Assembly (NCBI RefSeq): GCF_030013595.1
Contig: NZ_CP122768.1
DNA: 64,000 bases
Origin: Escherichia coli
GTDB lineage: Bacteria; Pseudomonadota; Gammaproteobacteria; Enterobacterales; Enterobacteriaceae
Strand: one strand, 5' to 3'
Shown here: positions 2,121-20,910 of the stretch, in pieces
How the letters are laid out: every line of letters begins with the position of its first letter
Position numbering within the stretch: position 1 is the first letter of the stretch
The notes under the pieces: generated by a model
Seen by the model: only the letters and a program-made list of their open reading frames with translations
Told to the model about the DNA's origin: nothing
Database searches by the model: none
Position numbers and translations under genes: made by a program

Positions 2121-5100
2121 TCAGCTGATACTGATGCCTGCGGTGGCTTTCTTCATCACCACAACCAGCAAATCGCTGATACTTGCTGTGGGATACCAGT
2201 TATTTACCAGCCATGCTGACACCGAAAACTCCAGTGTCATGTGACCGTGACCGGCAGGCATATCAATAACACCACTGTAAATCAGCGTATTATCCAGCGC
2301 GGTACGGTTATAAATTTCAGCACCGTTTTTCCGTACTATCAGACGGCATGAGGAGTAAATATCAGTATGCTCTTTCTCATGTTTAGCGCCGCTGAATGCC
2401 ACCGCCGGAATAACAATCTGCCGGTCAAACGGCTGATCGTCATAAACCCTGACGGTGATGGTCCCTGATGGCCACCGTTCCGGTGCACGGGAGTCCCGGG
2501 GGAAAGCTTTGCCCACTGTTTTAACGAGATCGCCTTCAATCTGGTTCGCGGACAGTTTTCCCAGAACCCGACAGTTCTCGTTAATCGTGACGTTGTTGAG
2601 CGTCCCGGAGTTCGCATTCACGTTACCGCTGATATCGGCATTTTTCGCCGTCAGCCGCCCGTCCGGTGTCAGGGAAAATGCCGGTGGATTTCCGCCGCTG
2701 GTAATGGTGGGAGCCGTCAGGCGTTTCAGGAACACGTCGTTCATGAATATCTGATCGCCCTGACCAACAAACATCGGCTTTGTGTTGCCATTCGCAGGAT
2801 TAATCATCGCAATCCGGTCAGCAGCCAGAAGCACCTGACTCTGCATACCTGCTGGCGTATTCTCAATACCGGCTCCGATACCCGCAATATAAAGGCGTCC
2901 GTCCTTCATCTGCTGCAGTTTCACGGCCCACATGCTGTTCAGGTTATTATTTGTATCAACCTGAACTTTCTGTATCTGCTGGATTGCCGCGCTCTGATTT
3001 TCCAGTTTCTTATTGACGGTCTGTGTGATTTCATTGCTGACATCCGTAATGGACGTCCTGATTTCAGCCAGGTCAGGCGCAAGCTGATCGTTATCAATCT
3101 GCGTCCACAGCTCCTGAGCCAGATGGGTTTTCCCTATCTCGCCTTTGAAAAAATCCAGATAGCCGGATGCGTCATCACTCGGCTGACCGACAGCCTCCAC
3201 GAATGCCGATTTGCCAACAGTGTTCACACTGCGAACGTAAAAATAATAATCATGGCCCGGCTTAATATTGATACTGGCAGCTATCCAGTACAGCGCCGTA
3301 CCAAGATAGCGCGCTGTGGTTTCAACCTGCCTGATATCCGCAATCCGCTTTTCCGAGAACCAGAACTCAAACTGTACCGTCGGATCATAAACGGCAAGAT
3401 GCGGCGTGGCGGTTATCTGAAAATAGCCCGGCGTCAGCTCAATCCGCGACGGTGCTGCCGGTGCGGCAATCCGGAACGATACCGATGCCGGATCGCCCTG
3501 CTGTCCCCACGCATTTACCGCCCGGACTGTCAGCCTGTAGTTCCCCAGCGCCAGCTGCCTGAAGCGGTATGTGGTTTCCGTCGTCCGGGCCGTGCTGACC
3601 AGCCGCTCACTGCCGTCATCGGCGGCCACGGTCAGGCGAAGCATAAAGCTCACACCCTTCACCACCTTCGGCGTGTCCCAGCGCGCCAGCACCTGATACT
3701 CCCCACTGTCTGCGGTGACTTCTGCGGTCAGGTGCTGCACCGCTGGCGGCGTGACACCATTCACCGTGCCGCTCTGGTCGCCGTCAAAGTGCGCCCCGTT
3801 ATCCACGATGGCTTCTTTCTCCGGTACATGCTGCACGGCAGTGATGGCATACGTGCCGTCATCGTTCTCACGGATACTCACACAGCGGAACAGGCGCTGG
3901 CGCAACGTCGGCAGCTTCAGCCCCCACACGCTGTATTCTGCAACGCCGTCAGGAACACGGCTCACTTTCACCTTCACACCGTCGGTGACGGACTGAACCT
4001 CCACGCTGACCGGATTGCCACTTCCGTCAACCAGGCTTATCAGCGTGGTACCGGAGGATGGCAGCGTGATTTCACGGTCGAGCGTCAGCGTCCGGGTCTG
4101 GCTGTTCACCGCCAGCACGCGCCCGCCGGTGCTGATACCGGCATAGTCATCATCGCAGATTTCAATGACATCGCCCGGCACATGGCGAAGCCCTTCTGCG
4201 CCCACGCTGAAATCCACGGTCTGCGTTTCCAGCAGTTCCGTTTTAATCAGCCACAGCCCGGCGCGGTGTGCCTGCCCCCGGCTGGTACAGCCAAAGGCAT
4301 CCATCTTCGTAACATTACGACCGTAACGGGCAATGGCCTGCGTATCTTCAACAAGCTCTGTCGCCGTCTCCCAGCCGTTATCCGGGTCAATCCAGTTCAC
4401 CTCAACGGCATTATGGCGGTCCTTCAGGGCGCTGAAGCTGTAGCGGAACGGCGCGCCATCATCCGGCATCACCACATTACTGCGGTTATAGGTCCACACC
4501 TTATCCGACGGTCGGTCCTGCACGAACGTCAGCGTCTGCCCGTTCCATACCGGCATACAGCGCATCGCCGAGCAGAAATCGCTGAGCACATCCCACGCCT
4601 TACGTTGTGTGGTCAGCCAGGCATTACAGGTGATGCGCGGCTCCGTGCCGCCAAAACCGTCCGGCACCGACTGGTCGCAGTACTGGCCGATGACATACAG
4701 CGCCCATTTATCCACATCTGCCGCACCAAGACGTTTCCCCATGCCGTAGCGCGGATGGGTCAGCATATCCCACAGACACCAGGCCATGTTGTTGCTGTAT
4801 GCTGGCTTAAACGTTCCATCCCAGATACCGCTGTATTGCCGCGTCTGCGGGTTATAGTTCGACGGCACCTGCAGAATGCGCCCGCGCAGATGATAATTAC
4901 GGCTCACCTGCTGGCTGCCGAACTGCTCCGAGTCCACCTGCACGCCGACCAGTGCCGTGTTCGGGTAGCACTGTTTCACATCTATAATTTCGGTGTATGA
5001 CGACCAGAGCGTTTTGTTCTGCAGCTGGTCTGTGGTGCTGTCCGGCGTCATCCTGCGCATCCGGATACTGAACGGGCGCGGCGGCAGGTTATCCACCACC

Positions 5101-5600
5101 ACCGAGGCCAGATACTGCGAGGTGGTTTTGCCCTTAATGGTGATGTCTTTTTCCGTCACCCAGCCACCGTTACGTTGTATCTGAACCAGCAGGCGGACTT
5201 CCGATGGATTCCTGTCACCCTTTGAGGTGGTTTCCACCAGTGCCTGCACACCGAAGGTAAAGCGCAGTCGGTCGATGTTTGCCGACGTGATGGCGCGGGT
5301 GATCGGCGTGTCGTATTTCACTTCCGTACCCAGCACCGTCTCGGAGCCGGAGGATTCAAATCCCTCCGGCGGAGTCTGCTCCTGCTCACCAGCCCGGAAC
5401 ACCACCGTGACACCGGCGATGTTGGTATTCCCCTCACTGTCCAGCACCGGCGTACTGTTCAGCAGCACGCTTTTTAATCCATCCACCGGACCTTCAATCG
5501 GCCCTTCACTGATGGCATCAATCACACTCAGCAACTGCGTGGATTTCAGGTTGTCCTTCGCTTCGCGCGGGGTATGCCCCTTACTGCTGCCTTTACCCAT
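2121..5600 (-). CDS. J: tail tip host specificity protein J
   Basis: 1159-aa ORF, ATG start, λ gene order (downstream of I), λ J-like sequence. Confidence 0.9.
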
Positions 5601-5671
5601 TCGTCACGCTCCATAAACGACAAAACCGCCCGCAGGCGGTTTCACATAAAACATTTTTCATCAGCGACCAA

Positions 5672-6331
5672 TCACCACAACCTGACCACCATCACCTTCA
5701 TCTGCTGTGCTGATCTCCTGAGATACCACCCGCGACCCCACACGCATTTCACCGTACAGAACGGGCAGGACATTGCCCTGGGCAACCATATTATCCAGTG
5801 AAGAAAAATAGGTGTTCTGTTTGCCGTTATCCGTTGTCTGTGTGCGGGGGTTTTGGGTTTAGGGGCCAGCATCTGCGCCACACCACCGAGCACCATACTG
5901 GCACCGAGAGAAAACAGGATACCGGTCATACCACCGGCCCCAATGGCTGCCCCCCATGCTGCAAGGGTGGCTCCGGCAGTAAAGAATGATCCGGCAATGG
6001 CGGCAGCCCCCAGAACAATCTGGAATACGCCCCCTGACTTGGCCCCGGCGACTCTGGGAACAATATGAATCACAGCGCCGTCAGGCAGAGTCTCATGTAA
6101 CTGCGCCGTTAACCCGGACGTGCTGACGTCCCGCCCGGCAATCCGTACCTGATACCAGCCGTCGCTCAGTTTCTGACGAAACGCCGGGAGCTGTGTGGCC
6201 AGTGCGCGGATGGCTTCAGCCCCCGTTTTCACACGAAGGTCGATGCGGCGGCCAAATCGTTGCAAATCCCCGTAAAGGCAGATGCGTGCCATTCCCGGTG
6301 ACGCCAGAGGGAGTGTGTGCGTCGCTGCCAT
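5672..6331 (-). CDS. I: tail assembly protein I; last ~60 codons read out of frame (apparent frameshift)
   Basis: First ~158 residues match λ gpI; tracked ORF ends in W/C-rich junk (…VMVVRLW) while the neighbouring frame encodes a clean …GDGGQVVVIGR tail ending at ~5661. Confidence 0.7.
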   Translation of the reverse strand: MAATHTLPLASPGMARICLYGDLQRFGRRIDLRVKTGAEAIRALATQLPAFRQKLSDGWYQVRIAGRDVSTSGLTAQLHETLPDGAVIHIVPRVAGAKSGGVFQIVLGAAAIAGSFFTAGATLAAWGAAIGAGGMTGILFSLGASMVLGGVAQMLAPKPKTPAHRQRITANRTPIFLHWIIWLPRAMSCPFCTVKCVWGRGWYLRRSAQQMKVMVVRLW

Positions 6332-6972
6332 TTGTCGGTGTACCTCTCTCGTTTGCTCAGTTGTTCAGGAATATGGTGCAGCAGCTCGCTGTCACCACAG
6401 TAAATGGCGGCATGATTCGGCACCGATGAACCAAAACAGCACAGCAGCACATCGCCCGGCTGCGCCGCTGACAACGGCACCTGATACAGCCCTGTGGCCT
6501 CCAGATTATCCAGATAGAGATTCTGACCGTTACGCCACCAGTCATCCTCGCGATGAAAATCCGGCATCTCAATCCCCGCCAGATGGTAAGCATCCCGGAA
6601 CAGCGTGTAACAGTCCGTCACCCCGTGCTCAAAGCGCCGCCCGGTGAGATGCGGCACACAGCGGAACTTGTGAATCGCCCCCCGGCAGACCAGCCACCAC
6701 GGCAAATCACTCTGCACCTGCAGCCGCCGGTCAGCCTCACTCAGCCAGGGCAGACCACCGGGATGACTGTGGACCAGTGCCACAATCTCACCCTGCATCT
6801 CTGCCTGCAGCCAGTCCTCCGGAGCCATCCGGAAATAATCCTCCGGCTCACCGGAAATATTCACGCAGGGAAAATATCTTTCCCCCTCCGGCGCTCTCAC
6901 CACGAAGCCGCACGACTCCGCTGGCGCACATCGCCGGGCGTGCGCCAGAATCGCTGATTCTGTCTCTGTCAT
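6229..6972 (-). CDS. K: tail tip assembly protein K (JAB/MPN + NlpC/P60 domains)
   Basis: HSHPGG…S..D JAMM-like motif; start placed at MTETES (track start minus 42 nt); alternative start at 6828 would give the 199-aa form. Confidence 0.75.
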   Translation of the reverse strand: MTETESAILAHARRCAPAESCGFVVRAPEGERYFPCVNISGEPEDYFRMAPEDWLQAEMQGEIVALVHSHPGGLPWLSEADRRLQVQSDLPWWLVCRGAIHKFRCVPHLTGRRFEHGVTDCYTLFRDAYHLAGIEMPDFHREDDWWRNGQNLYLDNLEATGLYQVPLSAAQPGDVLLCCFGSSVPNHAAIYCGDSELLHHIPEQLSKRERYTDKWQRRTHSLWRHREWHASAFTGICNDLAAASTFV

Positions 6973-6976
6973 GGGA

Positions 6977-7675
6977 TTACTGCGAAAGTTTGTTAATGGA
7001 AAGGAAGCCGCCAAAGTTGCCGACGTTATTGCGAAACTTACAGCCGCTCAGGCATTTGCTGCATTTATCCTTCGTGATATCGGACGTCGGCTGGTCATAT
7101 TCATCCGCGACTGCCGGACCGTGATAACCGCACTCATCACCGCGATAGGTCCAGGTGCAGGTGTTGGCCAGCATGATACGTCCCGGAAAAACAGCGCCAT
7201 CCGTTTCCGTCGGCGTGGACAGTACAAAGGAGGCACTCACCGCGCTCAGTTCGCTGCACTGCTCGATGCGCCAGCGGCTGATCACCTCCTGCTCCGGATC
7301 GGCGTCACTGTTTCCGTTGACGAAGTTCACCGCATCCAGAAAACGGGCGTAAACCTTACGCCGGACCACCGTTCCGCCGACCAGACTCTGCAGATCTTCC
7401 GCCATCCCGGTGACCATACCGTACAGGTTAGAAACCGTCAGCGTGGGGCGCGTACTGGTGCCTTTGCCATTCAGTTCAAAACCACTCCCCTGAATGGGAT
7501 ACGGCTGATACTGTCGCCCCTGCCAGGTGACCGGCACACCTTTTTCGTTCTGCTCATTACAGAAAAAATAACGTTCTCCACCGACCTCTGTCAGGTCGAT
7601 TTCCCAGAGCACCACGCTGGCCGACTGCTCCGCACGGGTGCATTCATTCAGTGTTTCCTGCCGGATATCCTGCAT
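6977..7675 (-). CDS. L: tail tip protein L
   Basis: 232 aa, λ gene order and size. Confidence 0.9.
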   Translation of the reverse strand: MQDIRQETLNECTRAEQSASVVLWEIDLTEVGGERYFFCNEQNEKGVPVTWQGRQYQPYPIQGSGFELNGKGTSTRPTLTVSNLYGMVTGMAEDLQSLVGGTVVRRKVYARFLDAVNFVNGNSDADPEQEVISRWRIEQCSELSAVSASFVLSTPTETDGAVFPGRIMLANTCTWTYRGDECGYHGPAVADEYDQPTSDITKDKCSKCLSGCKFRNNVGNFGGFLSINKLSQ

Positions 7676-8004
7676 CAGTTCACCACCTGTTCAAACTCTG
7701 CGCTGAACTCAACACGCAGCATACTGACCCGCGACGACCATTTTGCGCAGGTCACCTTTATCTGCCGCCACTCATAAGGCGGCGTCCACAGAAAGGCTTT
7801 CCAGCCCCCGTGCTCTTCCAGAAACGACTCCAGTACCGTGGCCTCCTCACGGGGGACAGAAAGCGTCACGCTGTACGTTTTCAGGTTGGCATTCAGCCCG
7901 GCAGGCGCTCGCTGGGAATAGCCATCACCAAAGCGCACCTTTCTTACAGAAGGGGCCGAAGCCACATCCATACCGGGTTTCACTTTCCAGCGGAAGGTTT
8001 TCAT
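7675..8004 (-). CDS. M: tail tip protein M
   Basis: 109 aa, λ gene order and size. Confidence 0.9.
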   Translation of the reverse strand: MKTFRWKVKPGMDVASAPSVRKVRFGDGYSQRAPAGLNANLKTYSVTLSVPREEATVLESFLEEHGGWKAFLWTPPYEWRQIKVTCAKWSSRVSMLRVEFSAEFEQVVN

Positions 8005-10562
8005 CGTCCACCTCCGGAGAACAGTCCACCATCACGCATCTGTGTCTGAATTTCATCACGGGCACCCTTGCGGGCCATGTCATACACCGCCTTCAGAGCA
8101 GCCGGACCTATCTGCCCGTTCGTGCCGTCGTTGTTAATCACCACATGGTTATTCTGCTCAAACGTCCCGGACGCCTGCGACCGGCTGTCAGCCAGACTGC
8201 CCGGTGTACCGACATAACCACCGGTGGCATAGCCGCGCATCAGCCGGTAGAGATTCCCCACGCCAATCCGGCTGGTTGCCTCCTTTGTGAAGACAAATTC
8301 ACCACGGTGAACAATCCCCGCTGGCTCATATTTGCCGCCGGTTCCCGTAAATCCTCCGGTTGCAAAATGGAATTTCGCCGCAGCGGCCTGAATGGCTGTA
8401 CCGCCTGACGCGGATGCGCCGCCACCAACAGCCCCGCCAATAGCGCTGCCGATACTCCCGACAATCCCCACCATTGCCTGCTTAAGCAGAATTTCTGTCA
8501 TCATGGACAGCACGGAACGGGTGAAGCTGCGCCAGTTCTGCTCACTGCCGGTCAGCATCGCCGCCATATTCTGTGCAATACCATCAAAGGTCTGCGTGGC
8601 TGCACTTTTTACCTGCGACATACTGTCCGTGGCGCTCTCTTCCCACTCACTCCAGCCGGACTTCAGGCCTGCCATCCAGCTCCCGCGAAGCTGGTCTTCA
8701 GCCGCCCAGGTCTTTTTCTGCTCTGACATGACGTTATTCAGCGCCAGCGGATTATCGCCATACTGTTCCTTCAGGCGCTGTTCCGTGGCTTCCCGTTCTG
8801 CCTGCCGGTCAGTCAGCCCCCGGCTTTTCGCATCAATGGCGGCCCGTTTTGCCCGTTGCTGCTGTGCGAATTTATCCGCCTGCTGCGCCAGCGCGTTCAG
8901 GCGCTCCTGATACGTAACCTTGTCGCCAAGTGCAGCCAGCTGGAGTTTGTACTCCAGCGTCTCATCTTTATGCGCCAGCAGGGATTTCTCCTGTGCAGAC
9001 AGCTGGCGACGTTGCGCCGCCTCCTCCAGTACCGCGAACTGACTCTCCGCCTTCCACAAATCCCGGCGCTGCTGGCTGATTTTCTCATTTGCTCCGGCAT
9101 GCTTCTCCAGCGTCCGGAGTTCAGCCTGAAGCGTCAGCAGGGCAGCATGAGCACTGTCTTCCTGACGATCGCCCGCAGACACCTTCACGCCGGACTGTTT
9201 CGGCTTTTTCAGCGTCGCTTCATAGTCCTTTTTCGCCGCCGCCATCAGCGTGTTGTAATCTGCCTGCAGAATTTTCCCGTCCTTCAGTGCCTTGTTCAGT
9301 TCTTCCTGACGGGCGGTATATTTCTCCAGCGGCGTCTGCAGCCGTTCGTAAGCTTTCTGCGCCTCTTCGGTATATTTCAGCCGTGACGCTTCAGTATCGC
9401 TCTGCTGCTGCGCATTTTTGTCCTGTTGACTCTGCTGTTCAGCCTTCTTTCTCGCGGCTTCAAGCGCAAGACGGGCCTTTTCACGATCATCCCAGTAACG
9501 CGCCCGCGCTTCATCGTTAACAAAATAATCATCCTTGCGCAGACTCCAGATGTCGTCCGCTTTCTTAAACGCAGCCTCTGCCTTAATCAGCATCTCCTGA
9601 GCGGTATCAGGACGACCAATATCCAGCACCGCATCCCACATGGATTTGAATGCCCGCGCTGTCCTGTCTGCCCAGGTCTCCAGCGTACCCATGTTCTCTT
9701 TCAGGCGGCGGGTCTGGTCATCAAACCCTTTCGTCGCGGCCTCGTTCGCCGCCTGCAATGCCCCGGCTTCATCGCCGGAACGCTGCAACTGAGCAACATA
9801 CGCAATCTGCTCCGCCGTCACGTTATGGAACTGGCGTGCCATCGCTGTCAGCCCTGACGTCGGGTCTGTGGTCAGCTTCCCGAAGGCTTCAGCGACCTTG
9901 TCCACCTCCACGCCGGATGCAGAGGAGAAACGCGCCACACTCTGGCTGATGGATGCAATCTGAGCCTCACCGCTTACTCCCGCCTTAACCAGTGCGCTGA
10001 GTGACTCGCTGGTCTGGTTAAACGTCAGCCCTGCCGCCTGCCCGGCTCTGGACAGGACCAGCATACGATCTGCCGTCAGACCCGACTGATTGCCGGAAAG
10101 GACCAGCGTTTTGTTGAAATCGGACAGGGTTGAGTTGCCCTGATACCAGGCATACGCCAGCGCACCGGTCGCCACCGCCAGCGAGGTGGCCCCGACCATC
10201 GGCAGGGTGATCGCACCGGCAAGCCCCCTGAACATGGGGATCATCCCGCCGAAGGAGTCCTTCACCTGACCACCCTGTTGCAGCAGGATCAGCCACGGAC
10301 TTTGCCCGCCTGCAAGCTGCGTGGCCACGTCGGTGAACTGCGCAGGCAGCATACGCATGGCAGCTTTATACTGCCCGACGGAAATCCCCGCTTTCTGTGC
10401 AGCCAGCGCCTGTCGGCTCAGCGACTGTTCAACGACTGCCGCTGTTTTTTTCGCATCACTTTCCGTACCGGAAAAATGACGCCTGACTCTGGCCATCTGC
10501 TCGTCAAATCTGGCCGCATCCAGACTTAAATCAACGACCAGATCGCCTACCGGTTCAGCCAT
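8001..10562 (-). CDS. H: tail tape measure protein H
   Basis: 853 aa, coiled-coil rich, λ position and length. Confidence 0.9.
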   Translation of the reverse strand: MAEPVGDLVVDLSLDAARFDEQMARVRRHFSGTESDAKKTAAVVEQSLSRQALAAQKAGISVGQYKAAMRMLPAQFTDVATQLAGGQSPWLILLQQGGQVKDSFGGMIPMFRGLAGAITLPMVGATSLAVATGALAYAWYQGNSTLSDFNKTLVLSGNQSGLTADRMLVLSRAGQAAGLTFNQTSESLSALVKAGVSGEAQIASISQSVARFSSASGVEVDKVAEAFGKLTTDPTSGLTAMARQFHNVTAEQIAYVAQLQRSGDEAGALQAANEAATKGFDDQTRRLKENMGTLETWADRTARAFKSMWDAVLDIGRPDTAQEMLIKAEAAFKKADDIWSLRKDDYFVNDEARARYWDDREKARLALEAARKKAEQQSQQDKNAQQQSDTEASRLKYTEEAQKAYERLQTPLEKYTARQEELNKALKDGKILQADYNTLMAAAKKDYEATLKKPKQSGVKVSAGDRQEDSAHAALLTLQAELRTLEKHAGANEKISQQRRDLWKAESQFAVLEEAAQRRQLSAQEKSLLAHKDETLEYKLQLAALGDKVTYQERLNALAQQADKFAQQQRAKRAAIDAKSRGLTDRQAEREATEQRLKEQYGDNPLALNNVMSEQKKTWAAEDQLRGSWMAGLKSGWSEWEESATDSMSQVKSAATQTFDGIAQNMAAMLTGSEQNWRSFTRSVLSMMTEILLKQAMVGIVGSIGSAIGGAVGGGASASGGTAIQAAAAKFHFATGGFTGTGGKYEPAGIVHRGEFVFTKEATSRIGVGNLYRLMRGYATGGYVGTPGSLADSRSQASGTFEQNNHVVINNDGTNGQIGPAALKAVYDMARKGARDEIQTQMRDGGLFSGGGR

Positions 10563-13940: not shown

Positions 13941-14966
13941 TTACGCCAGTTGTACGGACACGAACGCATCAGGGTCAGCCAGCAGCATCAGCGGTGCTGA
14001 CTGAATCATGGTGAACTCACGCGCCGGATCGCCGGTGGTCACCCAGTTTTTCGGGTAGCGGGCAGAGGCGTTAATACCTTCGCGCTGTGCGTCCGCATCC
14101 TGAATGCAGCCATAGGTGCGCAGACCGCGTGCCTGAGTGTTCCCCAGCACCATCGTGTTGTCCGGAAGGAAGTTCTTTTTGACGTCGTTTTCCACATACT
14201 GTCCGGAATACACGACGATCGCCGTATCGCCATACATCCCCTTATAGGACACCGCTTCGCCCAGGTCTTTTACCGCTGTCTCCAGCTCGGAATTAGAGCC
14301 GCGACGGGTATCCAGCTTCTCCCTGACGGCTTTGAAGGAACGGAACAGCGCCCAGCCTTTCGGATCAAACACGATGATATTCACCACACCGCTGGCGTTC
14401 AGCGCGTAGGCTTCGATATCGTCGGTCGGGTCATACGTGGACTTGTCACGCTTGCTCCACTCCGTACCGCCGGACTGCGTGATGTTGTTCGCCACACTGC
14501 GGCCCATATCCACTTCAACCGGATCGAAGGCTTCACCGGTCATGGTGTATTTGCCCTTAAGCACGGCAGAAACTGCCTGCATCTCTTCGACCTGAGCAAT
14601 GGCCAGCTCTTCGTCTCGCATGTTCTGCAGGATGATGCGACGGCGGCGGTAAGCCGGGTCCGCCAGATTCTGTGGATCTTCATCCGGCAGGCGACGCAGG
14701 GTCATCTGCGGATTCACCTCATGCTTGGGTTTGACATATCCCGGTGTAAATTCAGAGGTGGAGCCGCCACGGGAGCGGATAACCTCACCGGAAACAATCG
14801 GCGAAACGTACAGCGCCATGTTTACCAGTCCCGGAATTTGTGAGAGATAGACTTTCTCCGTGGTGAAGGGATAGCTCTCACGGAAAAAGAGACGCAGAAA
14901 CAGCGGATCAAACTTAAATTTCTTCTCATTTGCCGCCAGCAGCTGGGCGGTTGTGTACATCGACAT
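13941..14966 (-). CDS. E: major capsid protein E
   Basis: Start at MSMYTTAQ (track minus 27 nt); 341 aa λ gpE-like. Confidence 0.9.
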   Translation of the reverse strand: MSMYTTAQLLAANEKKFKFDPLFLRLFFRESYPFTTEKVYLSQIPGLVNMALYVSPIVSGEVIRSRGGSTSEFTPGYVKPKHEVNPQMTLRRLPDEDPQNLADPAYRRRRIILQNMRDEELAIAQVEEMQAVSAVLKGKYTMTGEAFDPVEVDMGRSVANNITQSGGTEWSKRDKSTYDPTDDIEAYALNASGVVNIIVFDPKGWALFRSFKAVREKLDTRRGSNSELETAVKDLGEAVSYKGMYGDTAIVVYSGQYVENDVKKNFLPDNTMVLGNTQARGLRTYGCIQDADAQREGINASARYPKNWVTTGDPAREFTMIQSAPLMLLADPDAFVSVQLA

Positions 14967-20390: not shown

Positions 20391-20910
20391 TCAGCAACCC
20401 CGGTATCAGTTCATCCAGCGCGGCTGCTTTGTTCATGGCTTTGATGATATCCCGTTTCAGGAAATCAACATGTCGGTTTTCCAGTTCCGGAAAACGCCGC
20501 TGCACCGACAGGGGGATCCCGTCGAGAATACTGGCAATTTCACCTGCGATCCGCGACAGCACGAAAGTACAGAATGCGGTTTCCACCACTTCAGCGGAGT
20601 CTCTGGCATTCTTCAGTTCCTGTGCGTCGGCCTGCGCACGCGTAAGTCGATGGCGTTCGTACTCAATAGTCCCTGGCTGGAGATCTGCCTCGCTGGCCGC
20701 CCTGTAATCCTCAACCTCTTTACGGAGTTTTTCATTTTCGATATCAGCTTCCCTCTGCGCATACCACTGAATTGCCATGGCGGTATCAAATACAGATTCA
20801 ACGCCCTTACCACCTCCGGAGACGCAAGGGAGTCCCTGAGACTGCCAGCGTTCAATCGTTCGCGGATCCACGTTGAAAATTTCGGCAAGTTTCTTTTTAT
20901 TAACCTTCAT
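20365..20910 (-). CDS. Nu1: terminase small subunit Nu1
   Basis: 181 aa, N-terminal HTH, λ Nu1-like sequence. Confidence 0.9.

What the first reader, a model, noticed from the sequence alone, without database searches (positions are those of the whole stretch)
6229..6972. gpK reading frame extends ~48 codons upstream and includes the JAMM-fold N-terminus
The open frame continues upstream of the internal Met (at 6828) that would give a 199-aa protein. The upstream part (MTETESAILAHARRCAPAESCGFVV…) contains the E…CG element that, with HSHPGG…S..D downstream, forms a JAB/MPN metalloprotease-like motif. The longer form overlaps the end of L by a few bases, which suggests translational coupling.
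Basis: inference. Interest (0 to 1): 0.3.

Follow-up and report, generated by a model that had tools for sequence, protein, structure and literature searches.

The report
Full-length lambda-type tail protein K
The tail-assembly gene K of this lambda-like prophage really does encode a 247-residue two-protease protein rather than the textbook 199-residue one, but this is already known from newer annotations, and the short textbook form comes from one missing base in the 1982 lambda reference sequence.

Summary
The main observation holds. On the minus strand, an ATG at 6972 opens a 247-codon frame ending at 6229, and the ATG at 6828 would give the classical 199-aa gpK.

The 48 extra codons are coding sequence:
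- They raise the Pfam Prok-JAB score from 23 bits (below cut-off) to 52.9 bits.
- They carry the catalytic Glu (E19, 92/93 homologs) and other invariant residues.
- They show the same purifying selection as the rest of the gene.
- They fold, at pLDDT 97, into the first helix and two core strands of a JAMM/MPN domain.
- They sit at the N-terminus of about 95% of distant full-length homologs.

Met49 is not conserved (13/93). It is Ile in Stx-phage K genes.

One detail is wrong. K does not overlap L: a 4-nt spacer follows the L stop codon. The start has no Shine-Dalgarno sequence but lies in an unusually unstructured stretch of RNA.

The 199-aa annotation has a simple cause. J02459/NC_001416 lacks one G at 14266/14267. 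Every independent lambda sequence has that G, including a de novo assembly of lambda cI857 ind1 Sam7 itself.

The JAB + NlpC/P60 architecture was published in 2003 and 2006, and PGAP already calls the 247-aa form. The finding is correct, ordinary and already known.

The parts
6229..6972 (-). K coding sequence, full-length form (247 aa plus stop, 28.3 kDa)
   Evidence: ORF list and sequence. Close relatives and E. coli RefSeq annotate the same 744-nt CDS. AF2 gives pLDDT 97.1 over all 247 residues.
6829..6972 (-). The 48-codon N-terminal extension that is missing from the classical 199-aa gpK
   Evidence: On its own it matches Prok-JAB profile positions 3-51 and phrog_30/2635/7305. It holds H11, A12, P17, E19, C21, G22, N38 and F47, each conserved in 75-93 of 93 sequences. 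pN/pS is 0.17-0.24, and 16 of 23-26 differences fall at third codon positions. In the model it forms helix 3-15 and strands 21-27 and 30-36.
6679..6963 (-). JAB/MPN (JAMM) metalloprotease domain, residues 4-98
   Evidence: Pfam PF14464 at 52.9 bits (cut-off 25), profile positions 4-103 of 114. Foldseek top hits are P. furiosus JAMM1 5ld9/5lda, AMSH, CSN5 and Rpn11. PDB 2kks aligns to residues 7-105.
6916..6918 (-). Codon for E19, the JAMM catalytic glutamate, which lies inside the extension
   Evidence: Glu in 92 of 93 aligned homologs.
6730..6771 (-). HSHPGGLPWLSEAD, the H-S-H-x7-S-x2-D zinc-site motif (residues 68-81)
   Evidence: H68, H70 and D81 are invariant. S69 and S78 are Ser in 88/93.
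6301..6642 (-). NlpC/P60 (C40) papain-like peptidase domain, residues 111-224
   Evidence: Pfam PF00877 at 47.6 bits, full-length profile match. D120 and H199 are invariant, and C121, H187 and H200 are conserved in at least 90% of sequences. Foldseek hits include MepS and other NlpC/P60 structures.
6973..6979 (-). L stop codon TAA (6979..6977) and the 4-nt spacer TCCC before the K ATG
   Evidence: Read directly from the sequence. The spacer is 5 nt in lambda and 10 nt in Stx phages. There is no anti-SD pairing (dG +0.7 kcal/mol). The surrounding RNA is almost unstructured.
6826..6844 (-). Internal GGAGG (6844..6840), 11 nt of spacing, then ATG (6828..6826), the classical lambda K start (Met49)
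   Evidence: Anti-SD dG is -9.5 kcal/mol, but the site is buried in a -19.5 kcal/mol local fold. Met occurs here in only 13/93 homologs, and the codon is ATC/ATT in PhiR5_1, BP-4795 and VT1-Sakai.
6977..7675 (-). Upstream gene L (tail tip protein, 232 aa)
   Evidence: ORF list. Annotated as L in all relatives.
5672..6331 (-). Downstream gene I (ubiquitin-like tail assembly protein). It overlaps K by 103 nt and is frameshifted in this window near 5850.
   Evidence: ORF list. Pfam Lambda_tail_I covers residues 14-97. A 1-nt deletion relative to five functional phages.

Best explanation
The gene at 6229..6972 (minus strand) is a lambda-type tail tip assembly gene K. Its real product is the 247-residue protein that starts at the ATG at 6972. 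That protein is a fusion of an N-terminal JAB/MPN (JAMM) zinc metalloprotease domain (residues about 1-105) and a C-terminal NlpC/P60 cysteine peptidase domain (about 111-224). The 48 codons upstream of the classical start encode the first helix, two core beta-strands and the catalytic glutamate of the JAMM domain. The 199-aa form would therefore have a broken first domain. The textbook 199-aa lambda gpK is an annotation artefact. The 1982 reference sequence (J02459/NC_001416) omits one G between 14266 and 14267. This closes the frame six codons upstream of an internal ATG that happens to follow a GGAGG. Translation of the long form probably starts by coupling to termination of L. This step is inferred: the start lies 4 nt after the stop, has no Shine-Dalgarno sequence and sits in unusually unstructured mRNA. 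Function is also inferred, from the published prediction of Iyer et al. 2006. In that view K is a non-virion assembly enzyme that processes the ubiquitin-like N-terminal domain of its neighbour gpI during tail-tip assembly.
For: Domain. The Prok-JAB score is 52.9 bits for 247 aa (residues 4-98, profile 4-103/114) but only 23.0 bits, below the cut-off, for 199 aa.

Homologs. Of 2739 relatives found, nearly all distant full-length ones (228-281 aa, 32-58% identity) align from query residues 1-20 to their own first 1-30 residues. In the 93-sequence alignment E19 is present in 92/93, G22 and N38 in 93/93, F47 in 91/93, C21 in 86/93 and P17 in 84/93. Met49 is present in only 13/93, with Ile in 62.

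Selection. Against three Stx-phage K genes (pS about 0.4), the extension has pN/pS 0.17-0.24 and the rest of the gene 0.16-0.18. Differences concentrate at third codon positions. Those phages have ATC/ATT at codon 49.

Structure. AF2 with the alignment gives pLDDT 97.1 and pTM 0.91, with residues 1-48 at 97-98. Foldseek returns JAMM1, AMSH, CSN5 and Rpn11, plus MepS/NlpC.

Reference error. Lambda imm21, HK630, DE3, PV340536, LC730321 and many others have GGAGGCGTATTTCC where J02459 has GGAGGC-TATTTCC. MW057783.1 differs from J02459 at exactly six sites: delG 139, insG 14267, and the ind1, cI857, 43082 and Sam7 substitutions. It is therefore an independent assembly of lambda cI857 ind1 Sam7, which I recall (not checked here) to be the strain sequenced in 1982, and it carries the G.

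Annotation. The 744-nt K is already called in VT1-Sakai, ev207, phage 21, PhiR phages, lambda PV340536 and E. coli RefSeq.

Start context. The 53-nt window round the ATG at 6972 has an MFE of -2.5 kcal/mol, which places it among the least-structured 0.9% of the operon. The same holds in 7 relatives at -2.4 to -5.8.
Against: No protein-level evidence was available. gpK is not detected in virions (PMC10721106), so virion proteomics cannot map its N-terminus. No ribosome-profiling data could be read. The ATG at 6972 has no Shine-Dalgarno pairing (dG +0.7), whereas the internal ATG at 6828 has a strong one (-9.5 kcal/mol, 11-nt spacing). Internal initiation in the lambda clade therefore cannot be excluded. 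Two records share the reference's missing G (OR474059 and OR974322). One of these is an UNVERIFIED record. The other carries only the Sam7 marker, on reference coordinates, so neither is clearly independent of the reference. Catalytic activity and the gpI substrate are predictions.
Confidence: 0.9

Rival explanations
1. Two isoforms. In the lambda clade, which includes this window, both the 247-aa protein and a 199-aa protein are made. The short one starts at Met49 (ATG 6828) behind the internal GGAGG and supplies extra NlpC/P60 domain without a working JAMM domain.
For: The internal GGAGG pairs strongly with the anti-SD (-9.5 kcal/mol), and ATG is conserved at codon 49 in the window, lambda, 21, HK630, ev207 and PhiR68_2. 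Gene callers pick this start in thousands of assemblies (199-aa clusters P0057, P0060, P0061 and P0075). The NlpC/P60 domain matches its full profile within the short form.
Against: The spacing of 11 nt is longer than optimal. Both the SD and the AUG are paired in a -19.5 kcal/mol local structure. The GGAGG is part of the CCG-GAG-G codons for the P43-E44 pair. Codon 49 is Ile in Stx-phage K genes and Met in only 13/93 homologs, so there is no selection for a start there. The short product would begin in the middle of a beta-sheet domain.
Confidence: 0.1
2. The classical reading is right. K is only the 199-aa protein starting at 6828, and the upstream 144 nt is an untranslated L-K spacer.
For: The lambda reference annotation and several derived records use this form. 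The internal ATG has a strong SD.
Against: The spacer shows codon-level purifying selection equal to that of the gene. It is conserved as protein in homologs down to 32% identity and is needed for a significant JAB match. It is modelled at pLDDT 97-98. The reference frame break is a single missing base that is absent from independent lambda sequences. No RNA family or promoter explains the region.
Confidence: 0.02
3. The frame starts still further upstream, at the TTG at 7014 (261 aa). K would then overlap L by 38 nt, which is what the reader's 'overlap' remark would require.
For: The frame is open to 7014, and TTG is a permitted start codon.
Against: There is no SD (-1.7 kcal/mol). The upstream open stretch varies arbitrarily among relatives (254, 272 and 337 aa). 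The Pfam match is unchanged by the extra 14 residues. In 87 of 92 distant homologs there are 0-7 residues upstream of the M1 column. The ATG is invariant in all aligned relatives.
Confidence: 0.03

Closest known systems
Bacteriophage lambda gpK (tail tip assembly protein K; TAPK of Iyer, Burroughs and Aravind 2006, PMC1779556)
   Same: The gene is about 96% identical over the 199 shared residues and has the same position between L and I. It has the same JAB + NlpC/P60 architecture described in 2006 and the JAMM motif listed for lambda K in 2003 (PMC300881). Resequenced lambda (PV340536, MW057783) is annotated with the same 744-nt CDS.
   Different: The reference entries (J02459, NC_001416) and papers built on them give 199 aa, for example PMC7291167. 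They lack the first 48 residues because of a one-base omission at 14266/14267. The window has a 4-nt L-K spacer instead of lambda's 5 nt.
Stand-alone prokaryotic and archaeal JAMM/MPN+ isopeptidases (Pyrococcus furiosus JAMM1, PDB 5ld9/5lda; Haloferax desampylase; Pfam Prok-JAB PF14464)
   Same: Same fold in the model (Foldseek E 3e-5, target TM 0.68-0.69). Same E...HxH...S..D motif. 5lda shows such an enzyme bound to a ubiquitin-like protein (SAMP2), which parallels the predicted K-gpI pair. A weak NCBIfam desampylase match covers residues 3-114.
   Different: K is fused to a second peptidase domain and sits in a phage tail operon. Sequence identity is only 20-23%. The NCBIfam score of 28.6 is far below the equivalog cut-off of 130, so K is not a desampylase orthologue.
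NlpC/P60 (C40) peptidases such as E. coli MepS
   Same: The C-terminal domain matches the full Pfam profile and MepS structures, with conserved Cys121, His187 and His199.
   Different: There is no signal peptide or cell-wall targeting domain. The likely substrate is a phage protein rather than peptidoglycan (inference from PMC1779556).

Membership tests
JAB/MPN+ (JAMM) metalloprotease, Pfam Prok-JAB PF14464 | Whole-protein score at or above the curated gathering threshold (25 bits) | tested here: met
   52.9 bits for the 247-aa form, residues 4-98. The 199-aa form scores 23.0 bits and fails.
JAB/MPN+ (JAMM) metalloprotease, Pfam Prok-JAB PF14464 | E-x(n)-H-S/T-H-x7-S-x2-D active-site motif | tested here: met
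   E19, H68-S69-H70, S78 and D81. They are conserved in 92, 93, 88, 93, 88 and 93 of 93 homologs respectively. The glutamate lies in the extension.
JAB/MPN+ (JAMM) metalloprotease, Pfam Prok-JAB PF14464 | MPN fold | tested here: met
   AF2 model at pLDDT 97.1. Foldseek top hits are JAMM1, AMSH, CSN5 and Rpn11. This rests on a predicted structure, not a solved one.
JAB/MPN+ (JAMM) metalloprotease, Pfam Prok-JAB PF14464 | Zinc binding and (iso)peptidase activity | not testable with these tools
   Needs purified 247-aa protein, metal analysis and a cleavage assay on gpI.
NlpC/P60 (MEROPS C40) peptidase, Pfam PF00877 | Score above the gathering threshold, with a conserved Cys-His-His/polar catalytic set | tested here: met
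   47.6 bits against a cut-off of 23, full profile 1-105. C121, H187 and H199 are present, and H199 is invariant.
Lambda gpK / TAPK tail assembly family | JAB + NlpC/P60 fusion encoded between gpL-like and ubiquitin-like gpI-like genes of a siphophage tail-tip module | tested here: met
   The gene order H-M-L-K-I-J is seen in the window. Identity is 95.7-98.5% to the lambda-clade phages listed (95.7% to lambda imm21). phrog_30 scores 543.7 bits. I carries Lambda_tail_I.
Lambda gpK / TAPK tail assembly family | Required for tail assembly but absent from the finished virion | not testable with these tools
   Literature only: gpK was not found by MS in virions (PMC10721106) and its location is unknown (PMC12617516).
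Translationally coupled gene pair (termination-reinitiation) | The start codon lies within a few nucleotides of the upstream stop and lacks its own SD | tested here: met
   The spacer is 4 nt and the anti-SD dG is +0.7 kcal/mol. The spacer is 5 nt in lambda and 10 nt in Stx phages.
Translationally coupled gene pair (termination-reinitiation) | K translation depends on translation of L | not testable with these tools
   Needs reporter fusions with and without a premature stop in L.

The most novel reading that the evidence does not exclude
Much experimental and structural discussion of lambda has used a truncated, JAMM-dead 199-aa gpK. Under this reading, the true 247-aa protein is an active deubiquitinase-like enzyme that removes the ubiquitin-like N-terminal domain of gpI during tail-tip assembly. 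This would explain why only gpI residues from about 101/135 onward are seen in tail-tip cryo-EM maps. In the lambda clade a second, internally initiated NlpC/P60-only isoform might also be made. This would be a phage-encoded Ubl/DUB maturation step, predicted in 2006 but never tested.
Probability: 0.35. Interest if true: 0.55.

Novelty: already known. Interest (0 to 1): 0.15.

Why it matters
For this window it matters little. Modern pipelines already call the 247-aa 'C40 family peptidase'. The practical value is curatorial. The lambda reference entries (J02459, NC_001416) and papers that rely on them still describe gpK as 199 aa. That form lacks the catalytic glutamate and a third of the JAMM domain. 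Anyone who clones, models or mutates lambda K from the reference will work with a broken protein. Clone sets built from the reference ORFs may have had this problem (an inference, not checked). The two-hybrid map, for example, found no K interactions with other tail proteins (PMC3224144). The correct frame is also the precondition for testing the long-standing prediction that K is a DUB-like processor of the ubiquitin-like gpI.

Tried and rejected
- Single-sequence AlphaFold gave a useless model (pLDDT 34.6). I replaced it with an alignment-based run.
- Two literature searches for the 14266 insertion found nothing relevant. A broader search, and one resequencing preprint it turned up, did not list the site either.
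- Casjens and Hendrix 2015 and the lambda ribosome-profiling paper (Liu et al. 2013) are not held. I could therefore check neither experimental start-site data nor any earlier published correction.
- I considered that the missing G might be a real property of the sequenced strain. I rejected this because MW057783.1 carries the ind1, cI857 and Sam7 markers together with the G.
- OR474059 and OR974322 share the reference state but are not clearly independent sequences, so I gave them little weight.
- I considered an RNA element or promoter in the 148-nt 'gap'. Rfam gave only a chance-level hit (E 0.76), and there is no promoter-like site there.
- I considered the TTG at 7014 as the start and rejected it.
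- The terminator-like hairpin at 6857..6840 is simply the local stem that includes the internal GGAGG. It lies inside the coding sequence.

Full report
**What is in the window.** Positions 2121-10562 on the minus strand carry a lambda-type tail-tip module in the order H, M, L, K, I, J. In the K frame the sequence is open from a TTG at 7014 to the TGA at 6231..6229. An ATG at 6972 gives 247 aa (MTETESAILAHARRCAPAESCGFVV...; 28.3 kDa). An ATG at 6828 gives 199 aa (22.9 kDa), exactly 48 codons shorter. One detail is wrong. L (6977..7675) ends with TAA at 6979..6977, and four bases (TCCC) separate it from the K ATG, so K does not overlap L.

**Is the extension coding?** Four independent lines say yes.

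- **Domain match.** Pfam Prok-JAB (PF14464) matches residues 4-98 of the long form at 52.9 bits (cut-off 25), covering profile positions 4-103 of 114. The 199-aa form retains only profile positions 63-103 and scores 23.0 bits, below the cut-off. The 48-residue piece alone matches profile positions 3-51.
- **Homologs.** An exhaustive HMMER search of 1.84 billion representatives found 2739 relatives. Among the roughly 100 distant ones listed (32-58% identity, mostly 228-281 aa), all but a few align from query residues 1-20 to their own first residues. Only P0243 and P0147 lack the region. In a 93-sequence alignment the extension holds several of the best-conserved columns of the protein: E19 (92/93), G22 and N38 (93/93), F47 (91/93), C21 (86/93) and P17 (84/93). 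Position 49, the classical start, is Met in only 13 sequences and Ile in 62.
- **Selection.** I compared the window with three Stx-phage K genes at about 40% synonymous divergence. The extension has pN/pS 0.17-0.24 against 0.16-0.18 for the rest of the gene, and 16 of 23-26 differences fall at third codon positions. Those phages have ATC or ATT at codon 49, so they cannot make the short form from that codon.
- **Structure.** AlphaFold2 with this alignment gives pLDDT 97.1 and pTM 0.91. Residues 1-48 score 97-98 and form helix 3-15 and strands 21-27 and 30-36. Foldseek against the PDB returns P. furiosus JAMM1 (5ld9, and 5lda bound to the ubiquitin-like SAMP2), AMSH, CSN5 and Rpn11 for the N-terminal half. 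It returns MepS and other NlpC/P60 enzymes for the C-terminal half. The only sequence-level PDB match, 2kks, aligns to residues 7-105.

The JAMM motif is complete only in the long form: E19, then H68-S-H70-x7-S78-x2-D81.

**Why the textbook says 199 aa.** In NC_001416/J02459 the K frame is open for only six codons upstream of the annotated ATG at 14276. Alignment shows that the reference reads GGAGGC-TATTTCC. Lambda imm21, HK630 and all other relatives read GGAGGCGTATTTCC (or GGAGGATTATTTCC in the window), so one G is missing between 14266 and 14267.

Of 186 phage records matching this stretch, only four share the reference state:
- J02459 and its RefSeq copy NC_001416;
- OR474059, an UNVERIFIED record;
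- OR974322, which carries only the Sam7 marker on reference coordinates and is of doubtful independence.

Lambda imm21, imm434, h434 imm21, DE3, KT232076, PV340536 (lambda from MG1655) and LC730321 all carry the G.

The decisive record is MW057783.1. It is deposited as 'Campylobacter phage CJLB-4' and differs from J02459 at exactly six sites:
- deletion of G at 139;
- insertion of G at 14267;
- 37589 C>T (ind1);
- 37742 C>T (cI857);
- 43082 G>A;
- 45352 G>A (Sam7).

This is lambda cI857 ind1 Sam7. From my own recollection, not checked here, that is the strain Sanger's group sequenced and the common commercial lambda DNA. The record is an independent assembly of it and it has the G. The missing base is therefore best explained as an error in the 1982 sequence. 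With the frame apparently closed, the original annotators took the next ATG, which happens to follow a GGAGG.

**How it probably starts.** The ATG at 6972 has no Shine-Dalgarno complementarity (dG +0.7 kcal/mol), unlike H, M, L, I and J (-6.8 to -10.8). It lies 4 nt after the L stop, against 5 nt in lambda and 10 nt in Stx phages. The 53-nt window around it folds at only -2.5 kcal/mol. The operon background is -14.0 +/- 4.2, and only 0.9% of windows are as open. Seven relatives show the same property, at -2.4 to -5.8. By contrast the internal GGAGG (6844..6840, 11-nt spacing, dG -9.5) and the ATG at 6828 are paired in a -19.5 kcal/mol local structure.

I infer termination-reinitiation or structure-free initiation coupled to L. 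This is not demonstrated. The strong internal SD is the one real argument for a second, shorter isoform in the lambda clade, and I give that rival about 10%.

**What it does.** K is a two-peptidase protein, JAMM plus NlpC/P60. The catalytic residues of both domains are present, and H68, H70, D81 and H199 are invariant across the family. The literature lists lambda K among JAMM proteins (PMC300881). It describes TAPK as JAB + NlpC/P60, genomically linked to the ubiquitin-like TAPI, and predicts that K cleaves the Ubl domain from I at its C-terminal glycine (PMC1779556). gpK is not detected in virions (PMC10721106) and is unresolved in Ur-lambda (PMC12617516). Only gpI residues from about 101 or 135 onward are seen in tail-tip maps. 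That is compatible with removal or disorder of the Ubl domain but does not prove either. The enzymatic role is inference.

**Comparison with what is known.** The architecture has been in print since 2003 and 2006. The 744-nt CDS was annotated in VT1-Sakai (accession AP000400). It is what PGAP calls in phage RefSeq and in E. coli chromosomes ('C40 family peptidase'), and it is used in the latest lambda record. The gene is ubiquitous: 4374 of 5426 complete E. coli genomes have it, with a median of three places per genome. The finding is thus correct but already known. What persists is an uncorrected reference and papers that still quote 199 aa, for example PMC7291167. Thousands of automated gene calls also pick the internal start (199-aa clusters).

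**Verdict.**
- **Observation:** partly confirmed, because the claimed overlap with L is wrong.
- **Interpretation:** supported.
- **Novelty:** already known.
- **Interest:** low, 0.15.
- **Confidence:** 0.9 that the 247-aa form is the conserved product.

Noticed in passing
L018 (J02459) 14266/14267; corresponds to window about 6838: The lambda reference sequence lacks one G that is present in every independent lambda-derived record, including an assembly of lambda cI857 ind1 Sam7. This single omission closes the K frame and explains the 199-aa textbook gpK.
   Followed up: yes
window 5672..6331 (-), deletion between 5850 and 5849: Gene I lacks one base relative to lambda, phage 21, ev207, PhiR68_2 and Lambda_AGU (AAC-CCCCG against AACTCCCCG). 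Its last 63 or so residues, the plug domain seen in tail-tip cryo-EM, are therefore out of frame. The correct C-terminus is readable in another frame. This is either a decaying prophage or an assembly error.
   Followed up: partly
window 6331, 6292 and 6232 (-), candidate starts of gene I; L002, L010, L020: Public records annotate gene I with three different starts, giving 223, 201 and 190 aa. The Pfam Lambda_tail_I domain begins at residue 14 of the 223-aa form, and the ATG at 6331 has an SD and unstructured RNA. The 190-aa GTG start overlapping the K stop, as called in the E. coli RefSeq and PV340536 records, therefore probably cuts about 20 residues off the ubiquitin-like domain.
   Followed up: partly
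L019 (MW057783.1, whole record): The record deposited as 'Campylobacter phage CJLB-4' from poultry faeces is lambda cI857 ind1 Sam7. It has six differences from J02459, all of them the known markers plus two indels. It is almost certainly laboratory lambda DNA rather than a Campylobacter phage.
   Followed up: yes
L017 (OR974322.1, whole record): 'Escherichia phage Lambda isolate P6/2022/SA' from chicken cloacal swabs carries the Sam7 amber marker and reference coordinates, but not cI857 or ind1. It looks like control DNA or a reference-guided consensus. It should not be counted as independent support for the reference state at 14266.
   Followed up: partly
L016 (LC730321.1) position 20836: Lambda_AGU carries an extra C at 20836. 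From memory, this is the stf frameshift site that distinguishes Ur-lambda from lambda PaPa, so the strain may have intact side tail fibres.
   Followed up: no
L007 (BP-4795 ORF70), L011 (KT232076), L001, L002: K itself is annotated with at least four lengths in GenBank: 199 aa (lambda, HK630, imm21, DE3), 211 aa (KT232076), 247 aa (most records) and 293 aa (BP-4795, running 128 nt into L).
   Followed up: partly
window 6229..6331 (-): K and I overlap by 103 nt in different frames if the lambda-type I start is used. The K C-terminal helix (residues 230-243, high pLDDT) and the N-terminus of I are then encoded by the same DNA.
   Followed up: no
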